A stretch of 60,506 nucleotides of DNA, counting the filler, from Squatina squatina (lineage: Eukaryota): the NCBI GenBank assembly GCA_031763465.1. It is 3 parts of 3 records of this genome, joined end to end, with 100 filler letters (N's around TTAATTAATTAA, not from the genome) between each part and the next. Parts side by side here need not be neighbours in the genome. Positions count along the whole stretch, not along the records: positions 1 to 22,657 come from JARFOE010000233.1; 2 more parts are not named here. One strand, given 5' to 3'. Made by a program: the position numbers and the translations under genes. Shown here piece after piece: positions 338 through 59,883 of the stretch; the stretch's first letter is position 1; the number at the start of each line of letters is the position of its first letter. The notes beneath the pieces were generated by a model. It was not told the DNA's origin, did not search any database, and saw only the letters and a list, made by a program, of their open reading frames with translations.

Positions 338-492
338 TATTTGGCAGAATCGGACAACTGATACTCTCGTCGTCTGTCATAACACTCCTGGATCCCAGGA
401 TCATTCCATAATTTTTTTATTGCTTCAACATATTTATTATCAAATGTGATTACTTTATCCACCTCCACTTCTCTGACCATATTTGCATTTTC
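338..492 (-). CDS. GNA14: G protein alpha-14, coding exon 3 (absent from the ORF track)
   Basis: 155-bp exon with canonical splice sites (tttaatag|GAA...AAA TA|gtaagt). It translates [68 protein letters not shown] and SDSAK are GNA14-type. It has the same size and phase as GNAQ exon 3 and lies downstream of GNAQ on the same strand. Confidence 0.88.
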
Positions 493-5199: not shown

Positions 5200-8100
5200 A
5201 ATGTAACTTTTTATTTGCTTCAATATCTGTTTTTATACTGTGCACATTTTCTACTGAAAATGTGACAATGGGAAGGGCCTACTTTTTATAACAATCATTG
5301 ACTACTAATATTAAAATGAACATGTGGAGAACTACAAATTCAAAGTATCCATTTTATTGAACATACAATCCATGACAAGGGGCAAGTCTGTTTTGTGCTA
5401 CAACATTGGTACTGTTCAAATTTCTCTCAGGAGAGTCTAATTGACAACTATTAATTTCAAGTGCTGGATAAAATACCTAAGACTTTCATACTGGATAATA
5501 ACATGATTTTTTTTTTTAAGTGAAGAGTAACATCAGTGGAATAAAAAACTTATTCCCAGTACAGTATCAAGAAAAGTAGATTCGAAGAAAAATACAAGCA
5601 GGAGACATCAAATGAAACCAGTACAAAATTATGGCCAAAAATACTATATTTGTAACCAGCAAGATCATTTGGGGCATTAATATACAACATTAGTTTTTTC
5701 CTTCCCCAAACAATGACAATACATGCAGGAATGCCATTCTGTCATACGCATAATGTATTTTTCCTAACTTGCGTATGCTGTCATTAGCTGACAGGAGCAT
5801 GGTGAAGAAATGTAGTTTGCCTGTGAAAGGAACATTTTTCCAATTGGCCTTCGCCAACATTTTAATTTTGGAGAACTATCCACACATGCCCAATCCATTG
5901 CAGCTTCAGCTTATAAACACATTAGTTGTAATAATACATAGAGCAATCTAACTTAATACAATATACCTGTATCATACAAAACAGAGAAATCATGATTTCA
6001 CAGCAACCATGCAGGCACAAATATTGCATGGTTGTCTTATGTGGCTAGCAGTATAAATGAGGCAAATTGTACNNNNNNNNNNNNNNNNNNNNNNNNNNNN
6101 NNNNNNNNNNNNNNNNNNNNNNNNNNNNNNNNNNNNNNNNNNNNNNNNNNNNNNNNNNNNNNNNNNNNNNNNNNNNNNNNNNNNNNNNNNNNNNNNNNNN
6201 NNNNNNNNNNNNNNNNNNNNNNNNNNNNNNNNNNNNNNNNNNNNNNNNNNNNNNNNNNNNNNNNNNNNNNNNNNNNNNNNNNNNNNNNNNNNNNNNNNNN
6301 NNNNNNNNNNNNNNNNNNNNNNNNNNNNNNNNNNNNNNNNNNNNNNNNNNNNNNNNNNNNNNNNNNNNNNNNNNNNNNNNNNNNNNNNNNNNNNNNNNNN
6401 NNNNNNNNNNNNNNNNNNNNNNNNNNNNNNNNNNNNNNNNNNNNNNNNNNNNNNNNNNNNNNNNNNNNNNNNNNNNNNNNNNNNNNNNNNNNNNNNNNNN
6501 NNNNNNNNNNNNNNNNNNNNNNNNNNNNNNNNNNNNNNNNNNNNNNNNNNNNNNNNNNNNNNNNNNNNNNNNNNNNNNNNNNNNNNNNNNNNNNNNNNNN
6601 NNNNNNNNNNNNNNNNNNNNNNNNNNNNNNNNNNNNNNNNNNNNNNNNNNNNNNNNNNNNNNNNNNNNNNNNNNNNNNNNNNNNNNNNNNNNNNNNNATG
6701 CTGAAGCCTGCTTGTCTACTTCATGAGCCGAGTCATTTGATTAAATTTTGCATAAAAAGTTCTTTCTAGGAGATGAAGGAGGGACTTCGATTTTATCAAA
6801 AGGCATTCTTTGATCAGAAACCCATGTGGCGATGCATATTAATCAGACTACCACACTGTATGATAATTATCTTTACTTCCAAAATGACAATTTTTTAGAT
6901 CCCTAGCTGAGAAATAAACTGGCAAAAATTTACATTCTCTTCTCTTAAAAAAGTAAATAACATTATTCAAAATGTGAATCAGCTATAAGACTTACAATAC
7001 AATTACGTAGTTACATAGATACATATTATCAATACAGCACATTCAATCTGCCAAAATTATCACAAAGCCAATATGGATGTGGGCGCGCGTGTGTACATAT
7101 ATATAATATATATACGTATACACACAAAATGATTACAGCATTCATAATTACACTATACCTACAGCCAGGTTTTACAAATTATAGGAGTTTTGTCCATGGG
7201 AGCACAAATGCATGTTAGGTGAAGGGGCAGGAATTAAGGGAGACAATCACTGACCATTAACTTTGGTACTCCATAGAAACAAAAGCTACTCTTTTAAAGC
7301 AGAAAACCATGCACAAAGACATCCTACCTTTGACAATGAACAGTGCAGACTTTTAAATTAGCTCACTTTGACCTATCTGTAGTTTCTGCACTATTAGCTC
7401 AAAGAGCAACAAAGCTGAAAATTAGCGAGTTAAAGGGACATGGTGGCATCTATTCAAATTTCTGCTCTTTAATCAGGCATCATTTTTAAAAAAACAGGAC
7501 CCAAATTTTGAAAAGCACGTCTACGGTAGGACGAAAGTAATTATACAGGTTAATTTTCCAAGACGTTATGGCAAATGAAAACCATTTTGGTTTAAAATTA
7601 AGGATCTGACAAGATTTTATCAAAACATGATTTACAGTACCTTTAACATATGTGTAAAAAAGTTAAGATACAAAATTGGTCATGGACACTGATCAGCTTA
7701 TGTTAAAGAATAGTACAAAGCTAATGGCAAATATTACACAATGTGAAAGAGCACCAGTTTTTTTTTCTCACTTATTTTGGCATATGTCCAACAAAACTTG
7801 ATTTTAGAAGAACCCAGGAGCCAATGCTGCAATGTTACTTACTTACCATTCATCTTCTGCTCAAGTGCAGCTACTGTGATACGAGCCACATTATTTTAGG
7901 CATTTTGAGTAAAGCAATTTTTATCTATTAAAAATTCAAAAATAGAAAACAAATGCCATGACTGGCAATATTAAAACTCTTCTCACTAAAAGCCAAAAAA
8001 AAATTAAAAATTACACTGGAGCAAAGTAAGTATGTCAATGATGCCCCCAGCTACAGTTCTAAGAAAGAAGACCTATGCAAAAATCAGCAAATGTAGTGTA

Positions 8101-8871
8101 CATGACATTTCGTTTGGCATCTTTCAATAAAACAAGTCTAGTAATAGCAATAGAGTGGCACATAATAAATAGAAATCGAACCCCATTTACTGTTTTACAA
8201 GTACACAACATTCTCAATATTGTACTCTTACCTACATCTATCCATGTTTTTGGGAATCCAAGTGTGGCAACATTTACAGGTGAGTCATGATGGCAATCAG
8301 CTATTGCTTAATTAGCTTGCATCTTTATAGCTTAAGATGAAGACAGCTGGTTTAGTATGAAACTTGATGTTTAAATTATACATATCAATAATTTAAAAAT
8401 CACAGAACCAATACTTCTCACCCATCAGAAAAAATAGTACAATAATTATACCACTGACAGCTTGGTTTCTGCCAAACAAAACATTACCACATTAACTGTG
8501 TACCACAGAGCGTCAAGAGGAACAGATCACAAAAAAGGACATTGTCCCTCAAATATTCCTTTGGGGAGGGAGAAGAAAAGGAAGGGGCGCGCTTGGAGAA
8601 GCAAAAAACCCTACCCTCCGAGTACAGAAATGGGAATTTACAGCAAAAATTGAAAATTTTACATGAAGTCACAAAGTTTTGCCTAAAAAGTGGACTGGTG
8701 CTGCAAAGGTGTGTCAGCATCTTTTGCCCCATTTTTGTTAAATAAAATCATAATATTTACTAAAACTCTGTGGAAGCACAGAGTCCAGGATGGCAATAAA
8801 TTAGCATTATGCAAATCATTTTCACAGATAATACAGTTGCTCTTATTTTTTTCTCAAGGTCAGTTGATATA
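5200..8871 (-). other. GNAQ: Probable long GNAQ 3'UTR, with candidate poly(A) signal AATAAA at 5210-5215
   Basis: AT-rich and nearly repeat-free, contiguous with the stop codon from 8871 to 6698, then broken by a 625-N gap. The proximal part (atttgcataatgctaatttattgccatcctggactctgtg...ccacagagttttagtaaatattatgattttatttaa) resembles the recalled mammalian GNAQ 3'UTR. The distal end is inferred. Confidence 0.6.
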
Positions 8872-9062
8872 CTAGACCAAGTTATATTCCTTCAGGTTTA
8901 ATTGTAGAATAGTGTCCTTGACAGCAGCAAAGACAAACCGTATATTCTCTGTATCTGTGGCACATGTGAAGTGAGAGTAGATGACCTTTTCTTTGTCTGG
9001 ATTCTGATTTTGATAGGTCTCCAAAATGAAAGCTCGAGCAGCCTTGGCATCTTGTTGAGGAC
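8872..9062 (-). CDS. GNAQ: G protein alpha-q, last coding exon 7 (GNA14-like 5' half)
   Basis: 191 bp, cattttag|GT CCT...GTC TAG, translating [63 protein letters not shown]. Contains the TCAT G5 box and the Gq C-terminus EYNLV; phase 1 matches exon 6. Confidence 0.93.
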
Positions 9063-9120
9063 CTAAAATGTATTAGAATTACAATAATCAAAATATATAA
9101 TACATGTTACTGGAGCATTA

Positions 9121-9736
9121 TTGGAATAAAAAGCTAGTCTCAGTAATGGTGACCATGAAACTACCGGATTGTGGTAAAAACCCATCTGATTCACTCATGT
9201 CCTTTAGGGAAGGAAATCTGCCATCCTTACCTGCTCTGGCCTATTTGTGACTCCAGACACACAGTAATGTGGTTGACTCTTAACTGCCCTCCAAAATGGC
9301 CTGTTTCTACTCAGTTGCATCAAACCACTAGGAAAAGCAATAAGAATAAAACCGAACGGACCACCCTGCGTCAACCTCGGCACCAGAATCAGACACCCCA
9401 AAGGCACATCCAGCCCAGTCAATCCTGCAAAGTTGTCCTCACTAACACCTGGGGACTTGTGCCAAAATTGGGAGAGCTGTCCCACAGACTAGTCAAGCAA
9501 CAGCTTCATGCAGTCATACTCACAGAATCATACCTTTCAGCCAGTGTCCCAGACTCCTCCATCACCATCCCTGGATATGTCCTGTCCCACTGGCAGGACA
9601 GACCCACCAGAGGTGGCAGCACAGTGGTATACAGTCCAGAAGGCGTGACCCTGGGAGTCCTCAACATTGACTGCGGACCCCATGAAATCTCATGGTATCA
9701 GCTCAAACATGGGCACGGAAATCTCCTTCTGATGTC
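9121..9736 (+). mobile_element. Non-LTR retrotransposon fragment with APE endonuclease N-terminus
   Basis: VVLTNTWGLVPKLGELSHRL...VILTESYL...IPGYVLSHWQDRPTRGGSTVVY carries the APE motifs N.xGL, LTES/ETW and DR...GGGV. Confidence 0.75.
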
Positions 9737-10344: not shown

Positions 10345-10527
<183 letters not shown>

Positions 10528-10941: not shown

Positions 10942-11178
<237 letters not shown>

Positions 11179-12110: not shown

Positions 12111-12247
<137 letters not shown>

Positions 12248-13347: not shown

Positions 13348-13502
13348 TATTTAGTAGAATCAGACAGTTGGTACTCTCTCCGTCTGTCATAGGATTCCTG
13401 GATACCTGGGTCAATCCATAAACATTTTATTGCATCCACATAGGGGTTTTCAAATGTTGTCACCTTTTCTACATCAATATCACGTACTAACTGTGCATGT
13501 GC
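13348..13502 (-). CDS. GNAQ: G protein alpha-q exon 3
   Basis: 155 bp, ccccacag|GCA CAT...AAA TA|gtaagt, translating [68 protein letters not shown] and SDSTK are GNAQ-diagnostic. Confidence 0.96.
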
Positions 13503-16059: not shown

Positions 16060-16305
<246 letters not shown>

Positions 16306-22657: not shown

Positions 22658-22757
22658 NNNNNNNNNNNNNNNNNNNNNNNNNNNNNNNNNNNNNNNNNNN
22701 NTTAATTAATTAANNNNNNNNNNNNNNNNNNNNNNNNNNNNNNNNNNNNNNNNNNNN
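22658..22757. other. Artificial scaffold linker
   Basis: 44 N + TTAATTAATTAA (stops in all six frames) + 44 N = exactly 100 nt. Confidence 0.95.
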
Positions 22758-46913: not shown

Positions 46914-47013
46914 NNNNNNNNNNNNNNNNNNNNNNNNNNNNNNNNNNNNNNNNNNNNTTAATTAATTAANNNNNNNNNNNNNNNNNNNNNNNNNNNNNNN
47001 NNNNNNNNNNNNN
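46914..47013. other. Artificial scaffold linker
   Basis: 44 N + TTAATTAATTAA + 44 N. Confidence 0.95.
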
Positions 47014-54990: not shown

Positions 54991-55030
54991 GAACTACATC
55001 TTGTGCAGGCATTTAGTACCAACAGTGTAT

Positions 55031-55461
55031 GGGGAGGGGGTGATATTTCAGTGTGAGTGGGGGGATGATATTTCAGTGTGTGTGCTGGGAGGGGTGAGAT
55101 TTTAATGTGCAGGGGTGGGGTGACATTTCATTGTGTTTGGGGGAGGGGTGATATTTCAGTGTGTGTGCTGGGAGGGGTGAGACTTTAATGTGTGGGGGTG
55201 GGGTGATATTTCATTGTGTTAGGGGAAGAGGTGATATTTCAGTGTGAGCGGAGGGATGATATTTCAGTGTTTGTTCTGGGATGGGTGAGATTTCAATGTG
55301 TGGGGGTGGGGCTGATATTTCATTGTGTTTGGGGAAGGGGTGATATTTCAGTGTGTGCGGAGGGATGATATTTCAGTGTGTGTGATGGGATGGGTGAGAT
55401 TTTAATGTGTGGGGGTGGGGGTGATTTTTCATTGTGTTTGGGGAAGGGGTGATATTTCAGT
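55031..55461 (+). repeat. G-rich ~27-bp minisatellite with four-monomer higher-order structure
   Basis: About 16 monomers of ggggaggggtgatatttcagtgtgt-type, in the order ABCD BCD ABCD ABCD A. Confidence 0.9.
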
Positions 55462-55998
55462 CGCACCTTTTTGCTTCCACTCTTTAAACAACAGCTGCAA
55501 TCTGCCCCTGCTCACGAAACGGTTGCTCTCTTCTGATTCCGCCCTATTTTGACCAGCGATTTCTCCCTGTTTCCGCTCGTTAAACCCACAACAGTGTATT
55601 TTTGTGCAGCGCTAAATGCAACTTTATGATTTAAAGTTTTTACTAAAATGCATTAATAAAGTAAAGTGTTTTGCTTTGGTGTGGAAACGACTCTGGGGCA
55701 CTCGCGCAATGAGTGAGAATTCTGCTCCTGGACCAGCAAAACTCATGGTTCCACTTGGATGCATTTTTCGAGAAAATGCAATTACATTTTATTTTACAAT
55801 TGAAGAGGTTACACAATGAAACACAGCAACGTTTTTCAGACACTCACCTTGTGAGCGCAGTGAGGGCATCTCATCAATTTGCCGCTCACGCACAAACTCA
55901 CGGATTCAAACACAGCCCATAGATGGAGGATCAAAATTAAACATAACTGGAATGAGCAGAGATACCTGCGACTGAGGTGAAAAACCACGTTCGGATTT

Positions 55999-56072
55999 GG
56001 CTCCGTGACTTAGTTGGTTCCAGTGCTTGCCTGATGAAAAGGAGATGCTGGATTCAACTCCCAGAAGGGCCT
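55999..56072 (+). pseudogene. tRNA-Thr(AGT)-derived pseudogene
   Basis: ggctccgtgacttagttggtt...ggagatgctggattcaactcccagaagggcct aligns to Thr-AGT; the anticodon loop now reads ctgatga. Confidence 0.7.
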
Positions 56073-56716
56073 TGTGATAATCTATATTAGGTCAATTTTT
56101 GCAACAAAATAAGACAGACATGCGTCTGTAATTGATTCAAAACGAGCTTGGAAAGATTAACTCCTACTTTCTCCTGCTCTTTGAATGCCCAACAGGGTGC
56201 GTCTCTACAGCGTGAAATGTGAAAGCATGATTTAAATTTTTAACGAAAGTACCTTAATGTAAGGTGGAGCTTTGCATTGGCTTGGAATTGAACCCGGAGT
56301 TCAAGCATAGCAAGCGAGAACTCTACCCCTGAAATGCCACTGAAATTGGAAGCACCGTGAGGACATATCATCAAGTCTGCCAATCACGCACACACTCACG
56401 GATTCAAAAACAGCCCATAGATGGAGAATCAATGATAAACATAACTGGAACGAGCACAGATACCTGTGACTGAGGTGTAAAAACTAAGTTCAGATTTGGT
56501 TCCGTTGCTTAGTTGGTAACAGTGCTTGCCTGACAAACAATTTTGGTCAATTTTAGTAACAAAATAAGACAGACATGCATCTGTACGTGATTCATAACCA
56601 GCTCATAAAGCTTGCATCTGATCTTTCAGCACACAACAGATTAATTTTGTGCAACAACAAATGTAACATCATGATTTAAACTATTCACTGAGATGAATTC
56701 TTGAAATGTGAAGCTT

Positions 56717-56787
56717 TGCTTTGGCCGAGAATCAAACTTGGGTTTCCCGCGTGGCAGGCAACAATTCTTCCCCTGAAGCACCAATGC
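56717..56787 (-). pseudogene. tRNA-Gly(GCC) pseudogene
   Basis: Full-length copy with multiple stem and T-loop substitutions. Confidence 0.75.
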
Positions 56788-57313
56788 TGACATTTCAGCT
56801 TTGATTCATGTGTCCAGAGAATGCAATTACATTTTGCTTTTATAATCGAAGGGGTAACACAATTAAACACAACCATGTACTTCAGACACTGAAAACGGAA
56901 GTGCAGTGAGGACATATCATCAAGTCTGCCGCTCACACACATAGTAGCACAAACTCACGGATTCAAAAACAGCCCATAGATGGAGACTCAATGATAAACA
57001 TAACTGGAACGAGCAGAGTTACTTGTGAATGAGATGTAAAAACCGAGTTCAGATTTGGCTGCTTTGCTTGCCTGATAAACAGTAGAAGCTGGATTCCACT
57101 CCCAAAATGGCCCAGCAATAATCTTTCTCAGTTCAATTTTAGTAACAAAATAAGACAAACATGCATCAGTAAATGATTCAAAACCAGCTCAGAAAGGTTT
57201 CTCCCGATCTGCTCCAGCTCTTTAAACACACAACAGGTTAATTTTTTGCTACACCAAATGTAACACAATGATTTTAATTATTCATTAAAAAGCATCTGTC
57301 AAACGTGGAAGCT

Positions 57314-57385
57314 TACATATGGACGGGATTCAAACCCAGATCTCACCTGTGCCAGACGAGAATTCGACCCCTGAACCACCAATGT
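57314..57385 (-). pseudogene. tRNA-Gly pseudogene
   Basis: Full-length copy with a mutated anticodon arm. Confidence 0.7.
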
Positions 57386-57898
57386 TCATGCTTCAGCTTT
57401 GATTCAAGTGTCGAGAGAATGCAATTACATTTTGCTGTTATAACCGAAGGGGTTACACAAATAAACACAGCCACGTACTTCAGACACTGAAAACGGAAGC
57501 ACGGTGAGGACATATCATCAAGTCTGCCGCTCACACACATAGTAGCACACACTCACGGATTCAAAAACAGCCCATAGATGGAGTGTCAATGATAAACATA
57601 ACTGGAACGAGCAGAGTTACTTGTGACTGAAATGTAAAATCCGAGTTCGGATTTGGCTACTTTGCTTGCCTGATAAACAGGAGAAGCTGGATTCCACTCC
57701 CAAAAGGGTCTTGCAGTAATCATTCTTAGTTCAATTTTAGTAACGAAATAAGACAAACATGCATCAGTAAATGATTCAAAACCAGATGAAGAAGCTTTCC
57801 CCGGATCTGCTCCAGCTCTTTAAACGCGCAACAGATTAATCTTGTGCAACAGCAAACGCATTACCATGATTAAAACTATTCACTGAAATGCACAGGTT

Positions 57899-57969
57899 TG
57901 CATTGGCCGGGAATCGAACCCGGGTCTCCCGCGTGGCAGGCGAGAATTCTACCCCTGAACCACCAATGC
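57899..57969 (-). tRNA. tRNA-Gly(GCC), near-intact
   Basis: GCATTGGTGGTTCAGGGGTAGAATTCTCGCCTGCCACGCGGGAGACCCGGGTTCGATTCCCGGCCAATGCA has a full cloverleaf, an intact B box and one D-loop change. A T4 run lies ~24 nt downstream (57872-57875). Confidence 0.88.
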
Positions 57970-58482
57970 TCACGTTCCAGCTTTGGTTCATGTGTCGAGA
58001 GAATGCAATTACATTTTGCTGTTGTAATCGAAGGGGTTACACAATTCGACACAGCCACGGACTTCAGACACTGAAAACAGAAGCACGGTGAGGACATATC
58101 ATCAATTCTGCCACTCACACACATAGTAGCACACACTCACGGATTCAAAAACAGCCCATAGATGGAGAATCAATGATAAACATAACTGGAACGAGCAGAG
58201 TTAATTGTGACTGAAATGTTAAATCCGAGTTCGGATTTGGCTACTTTGCTTGCCTGATAAACAGGTGAAGCTGGATTCCACTCCCAAAAGGGTCTTGCAG
58301 TAATCTTTCTTAGTTCAATTTTAGTAACAAAATAAGACAAACATGCATCAGTAGATGATTCAAAACCAGATGAAAAAGGTTTCCCCGGATCTGCTCCAGC
58401 TCTTTAAACGCACAACAGATTAATCTTGTGCAACAGCAAACGCATCATCATGATTAAAATTATTCACTAAAACACACAGGTT

Positions 58483-58553
58483 TGCATTGGCCGGGAACCG
58501 AACCCAGGCCTCACACAGGGCAGGCAAGAATTCTACCTCTGAACCATCAATGC
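58483..58553 (-). pseudogene. tRNA-Gly(GCC) pseudogene
   Basis: About 10 differences from the 57899 copy, disrupting the anticodon stem and T-loop. Confidence 0.78.
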
Positions 58554-59883
58554 TCAGGTTTCAGCTTTGGCTCATGTGTCGAGAGAATGCAATTATATTT
58601 TGCTGTTATAATCGAAGAGGTTGTACAATTAAACACAGCCACGAACTTCAGACACTGAAAATGGAAGTGCGATGAGGACATATCATCAAGTCTGCCGCTC
58701 ACACACATAGTAGCACACACGCACGGATTCAAAAACAGCCCATTGATGGAGTGTCAATGATAAACATAACTGGAACGAGCAGAGTTACTTGTGACTGAAA
58801 TGTAAAATCTGTGCTCGGATTTGGCTACTTTGCTTGCCTGATAAACAGGAGAAGATGGATTCCACTCCCAACAGGGTCTTGCAGTAGTCAGTCGTGGTTC
58901 AATTTTAGTAAGAAAATAAGACAAACATCCATCAGTAAATGATTCAAAACCAGATGAAGAAGCTTTCCCCCGATCTGCTCCAGCTCTTTAAACACACAAC
59001 AGATTAATCTTGTGCAACAGAAAATGCATCATCATGATTTAAATTATTCACTGAAATGCACAAACTCACAGATTCAAAAGCAACCCATTGATGGAGAATC
59101 GAAATTAAACACAACTCGAGAGAGTAGAATTACCTGTGACCAACATCTAAAAGCAGAAGCGAGCTTTAGCTCTGTGGCTCACTTGGTTAACCTGCTTGTC
59201 CAGTATATAGAAATTCCTGGGTTTGGTTTCCAGCCAGCCTTGCGCTAGTTCATTTTCTGTCAACTTATGCTACAACATAAGGCAGATTTGCATCTGTAAT
59301 TGATTATAAACCACCCCGGAAAGGATACCTCCTCTCTGATCCCACTCTTTACACAACCGCTCCTTTCTTCTCCCGCACAATTTTAAATGTGCGCTGGTCT
59401 CTGCTCCTGCTCTTTTAAAAGCTGCTCCGCTCTGATCCTGCTCAGTTTGATTCCAAAAGCTCTTTTTTCTCCCCCAGCTCTTAAACAAGCGAATGTACAA
59501 GATCCCACGGACACCATGCTCCCCGTGTCCCAAAGGAATTTAAAAACTAAGCTTGTTTTTCGAAGAGAAAATTTATAACCGATGGATAAACATCACCAGT
59601 CTGCTCTAGAGAAACGTCATATTAAAGGCGAGAAACTCTCGCCATGCCAGGGTGATTCAAATCTGCAATCTTCGCTTCACCTGACCGAGGCCAAGTGGAA
59701 TCGGAGGCTCCTGCTGACCCAACCCCGAGTCATTTCAATTCGATTGTAACAGCACAGAGACACATGCAGAGAACTAAAGAGCGAGATTTGAGCAGGCCAA
59801 GGATCAGCCTCAGTTACATTGTAAGCTTCATTAAATCCTTATTCTGACACTCTGCCCCCAATATCAGACTCTCCCTGCACTGG

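What the first reader, a model, noticed from the sequence alone, without database searches (positions are those of the whole stretch)
8872..9062. GNAQ last exon is a GNA14/GNAQ mosaic: candidate gene conversion of a receptor-contact surface
Seen: the exon encodes [32 protein letters not shown]...LKEYNLV. Recalled references are GNAQ/GNA11 [32 protein letters not shown]...LKEYNLV and GNA14 [32 protein letters not shown]...LREFNLV. Seven positions in the 5' half (Q4, Y17, Q18, Q20, K24, E25, V27) are GNA14-type. The C-terminus (KEY) is Gq-type, and the gap-free downstream UTR resembles the recalled GNAQ 3'UTR. Exons 2, 3, 4B and 6 are clearly GNAQ, and GNA14 is the tandem neighbour (exon at 338-492). 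Established: Gq is extremely conserved, and alpha4 / the alpha4-beta6 loop contribute to receptor coupling. Inference: a short conversion tract from GNA14 produced a hybrid Gq in this lineage.
Basis: partly seen in the sequence, partly recalled or inferred. Interest (0 to 1): 0.8.

Follow-up and report, generated by a model that had tools for sequence, protein, structure and literature searches.

The report
Shark Gq/G14 hybrid exon, probably misassembled
The last exon of a shark's Gq signalling gene starts like its neighbour gene G14 and ends like Gq; the mix is really in this draft sequence, but it more likely comes from a faulty join in a patchy assembly than from a true natural hybrid gene.

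Summary
The exon is present (8872-9062, minus strand, AG acceptor, 63 codons plus stop). Codons 1-30 group with sawshark GNA14 (98/91), and 10 of 13 third positions match a ray GNA14. The protein case for a Gq 3' half is one residue, Tyr60. Still, 0 of 98 named GNA14-loop proteins end with that Tyr, and the downstream DNA carries an in-phase splice acceptor matching a shark GNAQ isoform tail (14 of 2000 shuffles). So the contig is probably a true GNA14-to-GNAQ junction, with the switch in codons 28-59. Whether it exists in the animal is not shown. The scaffold is 35 small contigs with GNAQ exons 1 and 5 missing. All 12 shark/ray GNAQ records that reach exon 7 are canonical, and no second record of the hybrid was found. 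Best reading: paralog misjoin in a fragmentary assembly (about 0.58). Real recombination is about 0.25; misplaced GNA14 with Phe-to-Tyr about 0.1. Against the misjoin, an exact shared 21-mer has only about 6% modelled chance. Raw reads would settle it.

The parts
8872..9062 (-). Last coding exon (exon 7) of Gq-class type: 63 codons plus TAG
8983..9062 (-). Codons 1-27 (alpha4 helix to beta6): GNA14-derived
   Evidence: 10 GNA14-type residues; tree 98/91 with Pristiophorus GNA14; 10 of 13 third positions match Narcine GNA14
8887..8982 (-). Codons 28-59: same amino acids in shark GNAQ and GNA14; the inferred switch point lies here
   Evidence: no fixed difference between the two genes in these columns
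8884..8886 (-). Codon 60, Tyr (Gq Y356): the only Gq-type residue of the exon
   Evidence: 144 named proteins with Gq loop end with Tyr form, 98 with GNA14 loop end with Phe form, none with GNA14 loop and Tyr
6698..8871 (-). Downstream DNA, probably GNAQ 3' UTR; gap-free
   Evidence: indirect; scaffold position; resemblance to human GNAQ UTR is recalled only
8312..8332 (-). AG acceptor followed in phase by five codons and a stop, 4 of 6 positions matching the alternative tail of Hemiscyllium GNAQ isoform X2 (P0137)
   Evidence: 14 of 2000 shuffles reach this
9063..9736 (-). Intron 3' end, about 150 unique bases then a retroelement-like fragment; gene of origin (GNAQ or GNA14) unknown
   Evidence: retroelement label is recalled, not searched
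10350..10503 (-). GNAQ exon 6, on a separate contig
   Evidence: 51 of 51 identical to 11 of 13 shark/ray GNAQ records, 46-48 to GNA14
10943..11071 (-). GNAQ exon 4B
   Evidence: 40-42 of 42 to the 12 GNAQ records that cover it
12115..12247 (-). GNAQ exon 4A, broken by a 10-N gap
13348..13502 (-). GNAQ exon 3
   Evidence: 46-49 of 51 to GNAQ, 31-35 to GNA14
16072..16256 (-). GNAQ exon 2
   Evidence: 57-60 of 61 to full-length GNAQ records, 48-52 to GNA14
338..492 (-). GNA14 exon 3 (tandem neighbour, downstream)
   Evidence: 50 of 51 to Heptranchias, 49 of 51 to Pristiophorus GNA14

Best explanation
Contig 6698-9736 is a junction sequence: GNA14 (end of intron 6 and the first 27 or more codons of exon 7) joined in register to GNAQ (end of exon 7 and 3' UTR) somewhere in codons 28-59, where the two proteins are identical. 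Most likely the join was made during library preparation, assembly or contig merging of a fragmentary short-read genome. The scaffolder then put the contig at the GNAQ 3' end because 2.2 kb of it is GNAQ UTR. The animal would have an ordinary GNAQ and an ordinary GNA14. Shown: the GNA14 origin of the 5' part. Supported but indirect: the GNAQ origin of the 3' part. Inferred: that the join is artificial and how the contig was placed.
For: The window is 35 contigs of more than 20 bases, 34 of them 0.24-3.1 kb, mostly joined by 100-N gaps. GNAQ exons 1 and 5 and GNA14 exons 1 and 2 are absent and exon 4A has an internal gap, so coverage holes inside exons occur. GNAQ exons 2-7 span only 6775 called bases. 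The 5' part is sister to the nearest available GNA14, 29 of 30 residues identical, as expected if it is simply this species' present GNA14. All 12 of 13 shark/ray GNAQ records that reach exon 7 have the canonical loop. No named protein combines GNA14 loop and Tyr (0 of 98). The exon-length search gave no hit above 89% identity among the 120 listed of 287. A misjoin needs one switch in the conserved block; conversion needs a second one at or in a non-homologous intron.
Against: A de Bruijn misjoin needs an exact shared word. Paralogous exons in the window share 29 of 63 codons at identical residues, with longest exact runs of 11 and 17 bases. A simulation over codons 28-59 gives an exact run of 21 or more in 6% of trials and 31 or more in 0.5% (55% and 18% with optimistic settings), and two of the four arms must also have dropped out. 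The other six exons show no mosaicism. Frame, acceptor and stop are clean. No contig-end overlaps were found that would reveal the assembler's word size. No GNAQ record from sawshark, sevengill, dogfish-type sharks or chimaera was retrieved, so the closest relatives are unchecked, and a hybrid GNAQ could hide inside a 90% cluster.
Confidence: 0.58

Rival explanations
1. Real, recent gene conversion: GNA14 sequence overwrote at least codons 4-27 of GNAQ exon 7, giving a Gq with 12 changes in alpha4 to beta6 (R300Q, Q303K, E307A, K311E, M312T, F313Y, V314Q, D315N, L316Q, S320K, D321E, I323V) and an intact Gq alpha5 tail. It would still signal to phospholipase C, with some receptors' preference shifted towards G14.
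For: Mosaic pattern. The genes are tandem neighbours (PMC5896119 section 26). The contig lies exactly where GNAQ exon 7 belongs, and no canonical exon 7 is in the window. Mouse Gq/G14 chimeras were expressed at normal levels and gave calcium responses (PMC10432815, passages). Gq and G11 are described as highly redundant in mammals, so a changed Gq could be tolerated. An exact-word misjoin is modelled as unlikely.
Against: This stretch is unchanged from sharks to frog and platypus and nearly so in arthropods. No case among 144 Tyr-ending Gq-loop and 98 GNA14-loop named proteins. The tract covers the most diverged part of the exon and its left end would lie at the splice acceptor or in the intron, where little homology is expected (inference). 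No second record.
Confidence: 0.15
2. Real unequal crossover inside exon 7: an extra gene made of GNA14 (exons 1 to mid-7) with the GNAQ tail and UTR, lying between an intact GNAQ and an intact GNA14. Its protein would be G14 with Phe-to-Tyr near the end, under the GNAQ 3' UTR.
For: Needs only one exchange in the conserved block and leaves GNAQ intact. The head-to-tail order GNAQ then GNA14 gives this product. The mouse G14 F352Y mutant was not significantly different from wild type (PMC10432815), so it would be near neutral.
Against: Recombination in a 96-base block with many third-position differences is rare (general knowledge). A collapsed duplication would tend to break the contig at the junction, yet it runs through. 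No copy-number data.
Confidence: 0.1
3. The whole contig is GNA14: exon 7 with a lineage-specific Phe-to-Tyr change (one base), followed by GNA14's own UTR, misplaced by scaffolding.
For: 61 of 63 residues identical to Pristiophorus GNA14 against 51 to GNAQ. Only one residue is Gq-type. No direct DNA alignment of the UTR was possible; a paper search with one UTR motif found nothing.
Against: 0 of 98 named GNA14-loop proteins have the Tyr (relatives are not independent). The downstream DNA has the in-phase acceptor and tail of a GNAQ isoform: 14 of 2000 shuffles, and 2 other such sites among about 7250 AG sites elsewhere in the window, about 0.03 expected here. The contig sits in GNAQ exon 7's slot, upstream of GNA14 exon 3.
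Confidence: 0.1

Closest known systems
GNA14 of cartilaginous fishes (Pristiophorus japonicus P0033, Scyliorhinus, Heptranchias and others)
   Same: Exon 7 is 57-61 of 63 identical, including the alpha4-beta6 loop and the Lys-Glu before the last four residues.
   Different: All 19 records shown end with Phe at position 60; the window has Tyr and probably a GNAQ UTR.
GNAQ of sharks and rays (P0128-P0140)
   Same: Window exons 2, 3, 4A, 4B, 6; Tyr60; position upstream of GNA14; a splice acceptor in the UTR matching Hemiscyllium isoform X2.
   Different: 12 residue changes in codons 4-27 of exon 7, a stretch identical in all 12 records that reach it.
Engineered mouse Gq/G14 chimeras (PMC10432815)
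   Same: Swaps of the same region; functional; alpha4 residues E307, M312, F313, V314 contribute to Opn5m's preference for G14, while L316Q, S320K, D321E, I323V did not matter for that receptor.
   Different: Laboratory constructs that run to the end of the protein; the window would be an internal swap, with Ala rather than Asp at 307.
Paralog chimeras in fragmentary short-read assemblies
   Same: In-register join in the most conserved block of two paralogs, in a scaffold with coverage holes.
   Different: The modelled chance of an exact shared word is low. General knowledge; one search gave only a search listing of 3 papers, none read.

Membership tests
Gene conversion GNA14 to GNAQ | Tract groups with the donor paralog | tested here: met
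   Tree of codons 1-30: inside GNA14 (100/99), sister to Pristiophorus GNA14 (98/91)
Gene conversion GNA14 to GNAQ | Synonymous sites follow the donor | tested here: met
   10 of 13 third positions (codons 1-13) match Narcine GNA14, deduced from an out-of-frame isoform tail; P=0.024 against the 29/63 paralog background. No GNAQ DNA to compare with.
Gene conversion GNA14 to GNAQ | 3' flank belongs to the acceptor gene | tested here: inconclusive
   One residue plus one isoform-tail match, P about 0.007-0.03, found after the fact; leans GNAQ
Gene conversion GNA14 to GNAQ | 5' flank (intron 6) returns to the acceptor gene | not testable with these tools
   No vertebrate DNA collection; contig ends in a repeat and a 100-N gap
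Gene conversion GNA14 to GNAQ | Donor exon intact and no canonical acceptor exon elsewhere in the genome | not testable with these tools
   Neither is in the window; rest of the genome not available
Gene conversion GNA14 to GNAQ | Present in independent data (reads, transcripts, relatives) | tested here: inconclusive
   No such protein, but closest relatives' GNAQ were not retrieved and 90% clustering can hide it
GNA14 exon 7 (whole) | GNA14-type alpha4-beta6 loop | tested here: met
GNA14 exon 7 (whole) | Phe four residues from the end | tested here: not met
   Tyr in the window; Phe in 98 of 98 named GNA14-loop proteins
GNAQ exon 7 (canonical) | Invariant Gq-type alpha4-beta6 loop | tested here: not met
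   12 differences in codons 4-27
Assembly chimera | Junction unsupported by spanning reads; parental arms present in reads | not testable with these tools
   No raw reads
Assembly chimera | Shared exact word between the parents at the junction | tested here: inconclusive
   Only modelled: 6% for 21 bases, 0.5% for 31; 55% and 18% with optimistic settings

The most novel reading that the evidence does not exclude
A squalomorph-type shark has a natural hybrid Gq: after its split from sevengill sharks, GNA14 overwrote the alpha4-beta6 surface of GNAQ, replacing 12 residues in a stretch unchanged from sharks to platypus while keeping the Gq tail and UTR. That would be a natural internal-swap version of the engineered Gq/G14 chimeras and would shift receptor preference (for example for Opn5m) in every tissue that expresses GNAQ.
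Probability: 0.15. Interest if true: 0.7.

Novelty: not a real feature. Interest (0 to 1): 0.27.

Why it matters
If it is a misjoin, it is a warning: a clean, in-frame, well-placed exon in a fragmentary assembly can be a paralog chimera. If real, it would be an exchange between the tandem GNAQ and GNA14 genes that my searches did not find described (3 papers, and 15 listed of 28; none of the listed titles or abstract starts reports one, and the one hit for 'gene conversion' in PMC5896119 concerns other exons and is negative). It would also be a natural test of how far the alpha4 helix and alpha4-beta6 loop set receptor choice when the C-terminal helix stays Gq. The check is cheap, so it is worth doing.

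Tried and rejected
(1) 'KEY' as a three-residue Gq signature: rejected, shark GNA14 has the same Lys-Glu. (2) Exon 4A as a misplaced GNA14 exon: rejected, 32 of 32 identical to shark GNAQ exon 4A, a known duplication (PMC5896119 section 45). (3) A hybrid shared by sharks generally: rejected for the rays and galeomorph sharks sampled (12 of 12 canonical). (4) Search for an independent copy among exon-length proteins: best hit 89%, nothing shark-like above that; these hits, mostly unnamed, were left out of all counts. (5) Paper search with one 14-base UTR motif: 0 papers. (6) Contig-end overlaps to learn the assembler's word size: none over 16 bases. (7) Tail of Narcine GNA14 isoforms as a marker for intron 6: its first part has no convincing match in the window; its last part is exon 7 in another frame, then used for the synonymous test. 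(8) Paper search on a scaffolding tool: 0 papers. (9) Supplements of PMC5896119: one PDF listed and not read, tree files unreadable; exon DNA there might bear on the synonymous question. (10) Searches were translations in the wrong frame, redone in 20 and 21. No fold or complex was predicted.

Full report
Observation. It lies in a gap-free contig, 6698-9736. Upstream on the same strand, on separate contigs, are exons 2, 3, 4A, 4B and 6; downstream is an exon 3 of a second gene at 338-492.

Which gene is which. I compared each exon with 13 shark/ray GNAQ records and 13 shark/ray/chimaera GNA14 records. Exons 2, 3, 4A, 4B and 6 are GNAQ; 338-492 is GNA14 (50 of 51 to Heptranchias, 49 to Pristiophorus). 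This points to a squalomorph-type shark (inference). Exon 7 is 57-61 of 63 identical to GNA14 and 51 of 63 to the 11 complete GNAQ records. All 12 GNAQ records that reach exon 7 have the canonical loop; one record ends at exon 3.

The 5' half is GNA14. Ten positions are GNA14-type, Glu15 is shared with Pristiophorus GNA14 only, and Ala11 is private. A tree of codons 1-30 (24 rows, 30 columns, so coarse) separates GNA14 from Gq/G11 at 100/99 and puts the window next to Pristiophorus GNA14 at 98/91. Synonymous sites could be tested indirectly. A Narcine GNA14 isoform (P0250) reads exon 7 in the +1 frame, which fixes the third base of codons 1-13. The window matches 10 of 13, against 29 of 63 between paralogous exons within the window (P=0.024). 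The donor is therefore the lineage's own recent GNA14. That fits a recent recombination and fits a misjoin equally well.

Shark GNA14 ends with Lys-Glu-Phe, so only Tyr60 is Gq-type; codons 28-59 hold no fixed difference between the genes. The Tyr is nevertheless unusual. Of 280 named proteins examined, 252 had the anchor motif: 144 Gq loop with Tyr ending, 98 GNA14 loop with Phe ending, none GNA14 loop with Tyr, 10 others (unnamed hits and all hits left out; related species are not independent). For the UTR no vertebrate DNA was available. One indirect test exists. Hemiscyllium GNAQ isoform X2 (P0137) leaves exon 7 inside the Arg42 codon and ends with six new residues. The window has a GT donor in that codon, and at 8312-8332 an AG followed in the right phase by five codons and a stop, matching 4 of 6 positions. 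That is the only such site among 109 AGs downstream; 14 of 2000 dinucleotide shuffles reach it; 2 other sites occur among about 7250 AGs elsewhere in the window. It was found after the fact and is moderate evidence. Together with the contig's position these make a GNAQ 3' end likely, so the contig is probably a GNA14-to-GNAQ junction with the switch in codons 28-59.

Is the junction in the animal? The assembly is poor here: 35 contigs, 34 of them under 3.2 kb, mostly 100-N gaps and two artificial spacers. GNAQ exons 1 and 5 and GNA14 exons 1 and 2 are missing, and exon 4A has an internal gap. The link from exon 6 to this exon is only a scaffold gap, and the intron's gene of origin is unknown. 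No independent copy was found: one search listed the best 120 of 1584 longer proteins, another the best 120 of 287 exon-length ones (top identity 89%), and searches listed cluster members. These searches are weak for this purpose, since a hybrid Gq would be about 97% identical to Gq and could hide in a cluster, and no GNAQ from the closest relatives was retrieved. Against a misjoin, paralogous exons in the window share runs of only 11 and 17 bases, and the simulated chance of an exact run over codons 28-59 is 6% for 21 bases and 0.5% for 31 (55% and 18% with optimistic codon identity). Merging of imperfect overlaps or a library chimera needs less, but I have no evidence of either. The ranking rests on priors: a misjoin needs one switch in the conserved block, while conversion needs a second switch at a non-homologous intron and the tolerance of 12 changes in a stretch unchanged from sharks to platypus. 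My estimates are misjoin 0.58, conversion 0.15, unequal crossover giving an extra GNA14 with a GNAQ tail 0.10, misplaced GNA14 with Phe-to-Tyr 0.10; the rest is unassigned. They are judgements, not computed values.

How it would work if real. The changes map to Gq 300-323, alpha4 to beta6 (numbering from 6vu5). The alpha4/beta6 loop is a reported receptor-contact site and alpha4 a potential one (PMC8041822, passages; PMC4837292, passages). In mouse Gq/G14 chimeras (PMC10432815, abstract and passages) alpha4 residues E307, M312, F313 and V314 contributed to Opn5m's preference for G14, L316Q/S320K/D321E/I323V did not matter for that receptor, and G14 F352Y was not significantly changed. A hybrid should thus be a working PLC-coupled subunit with partly shifted receptor preference (inference). 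G11 could buffer it (PMC5896119 section 26).

What is known. The head-to-tail GNAQ-GNA14 pair and the duplicated exon 4 are described (PMC5896119, passages and sections 26 and 45). No report of exchange between GNAQ and GNA14 appeared in the listings; the library lacks most subscription papers, and that paper's supplements were not read. PMC9005189 and the papers were seen as listings only.

Verdict. Interest 0.27; 0.7 if reads confirm a converted GNAQ.

Noticed in passing
window 10943-11071 and 12115-12247 (-): Duplicated GNAQ exon 4. Described for coelacanth, gar and teleosts in PMC5896119 section 45; here and in 12 of 13 shark/ray GNAQ records both copies are present, and those records join both into one 402- or 344-residue-type model, probably a prediction error for mutually exclusive exons.
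   Followed up: partly
window 13348-13502 (-): GNAQ exon 3 has Ser at residue 37 where GNA14 has Cys; all 13 shark/ray GNAQ records share the Ser, plus a Cys at residue 27. A cartilaginous-fish GNAQ trait.
   Followed up: no
window 8312-8332 (-): Possible conserved alternative splice from inside exon 7 into the 3' UTR, which would remove the C-terminal receptor-binding helix; annotated as isoform X2 in Hemiscyllium GNAQ (P0137).
   Followed up: partly
window 22658-22757 and 46914-47013: Two identical artificial spacers: 44 N, 12 A/T bases with stops in all frames, 44 N. Marks of a scaffolding or concatenation step.
   Followed up: no
window 55567-59333: Tandem repeat family of about 550-600 bases, several copies at 69-86% identity, beside a 28-base minisatellite at 55023-55461, in the only long contig (47014-60506).
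   Followed up: no
window 9200-9736: Retroelement-like fragment filling most of the intron part of the contig; a reading frame at its end resembles a LINE endonuclease (label recalled, not searched).
   Followed up: no
window 6698-8871 (-): No AATAAA and one ATTAAA (7473) in 2174 bases; the UTR may continue past the gap.
   Followed up: no
proteins P0002, P0003, P0125-P0127: Database records of 552-733 residues that score as if holding two G-alpha units; P0003 is a Gq-type unit run into its neighbour. Probably merged predictions of tandem pairs.
   Followed up: no
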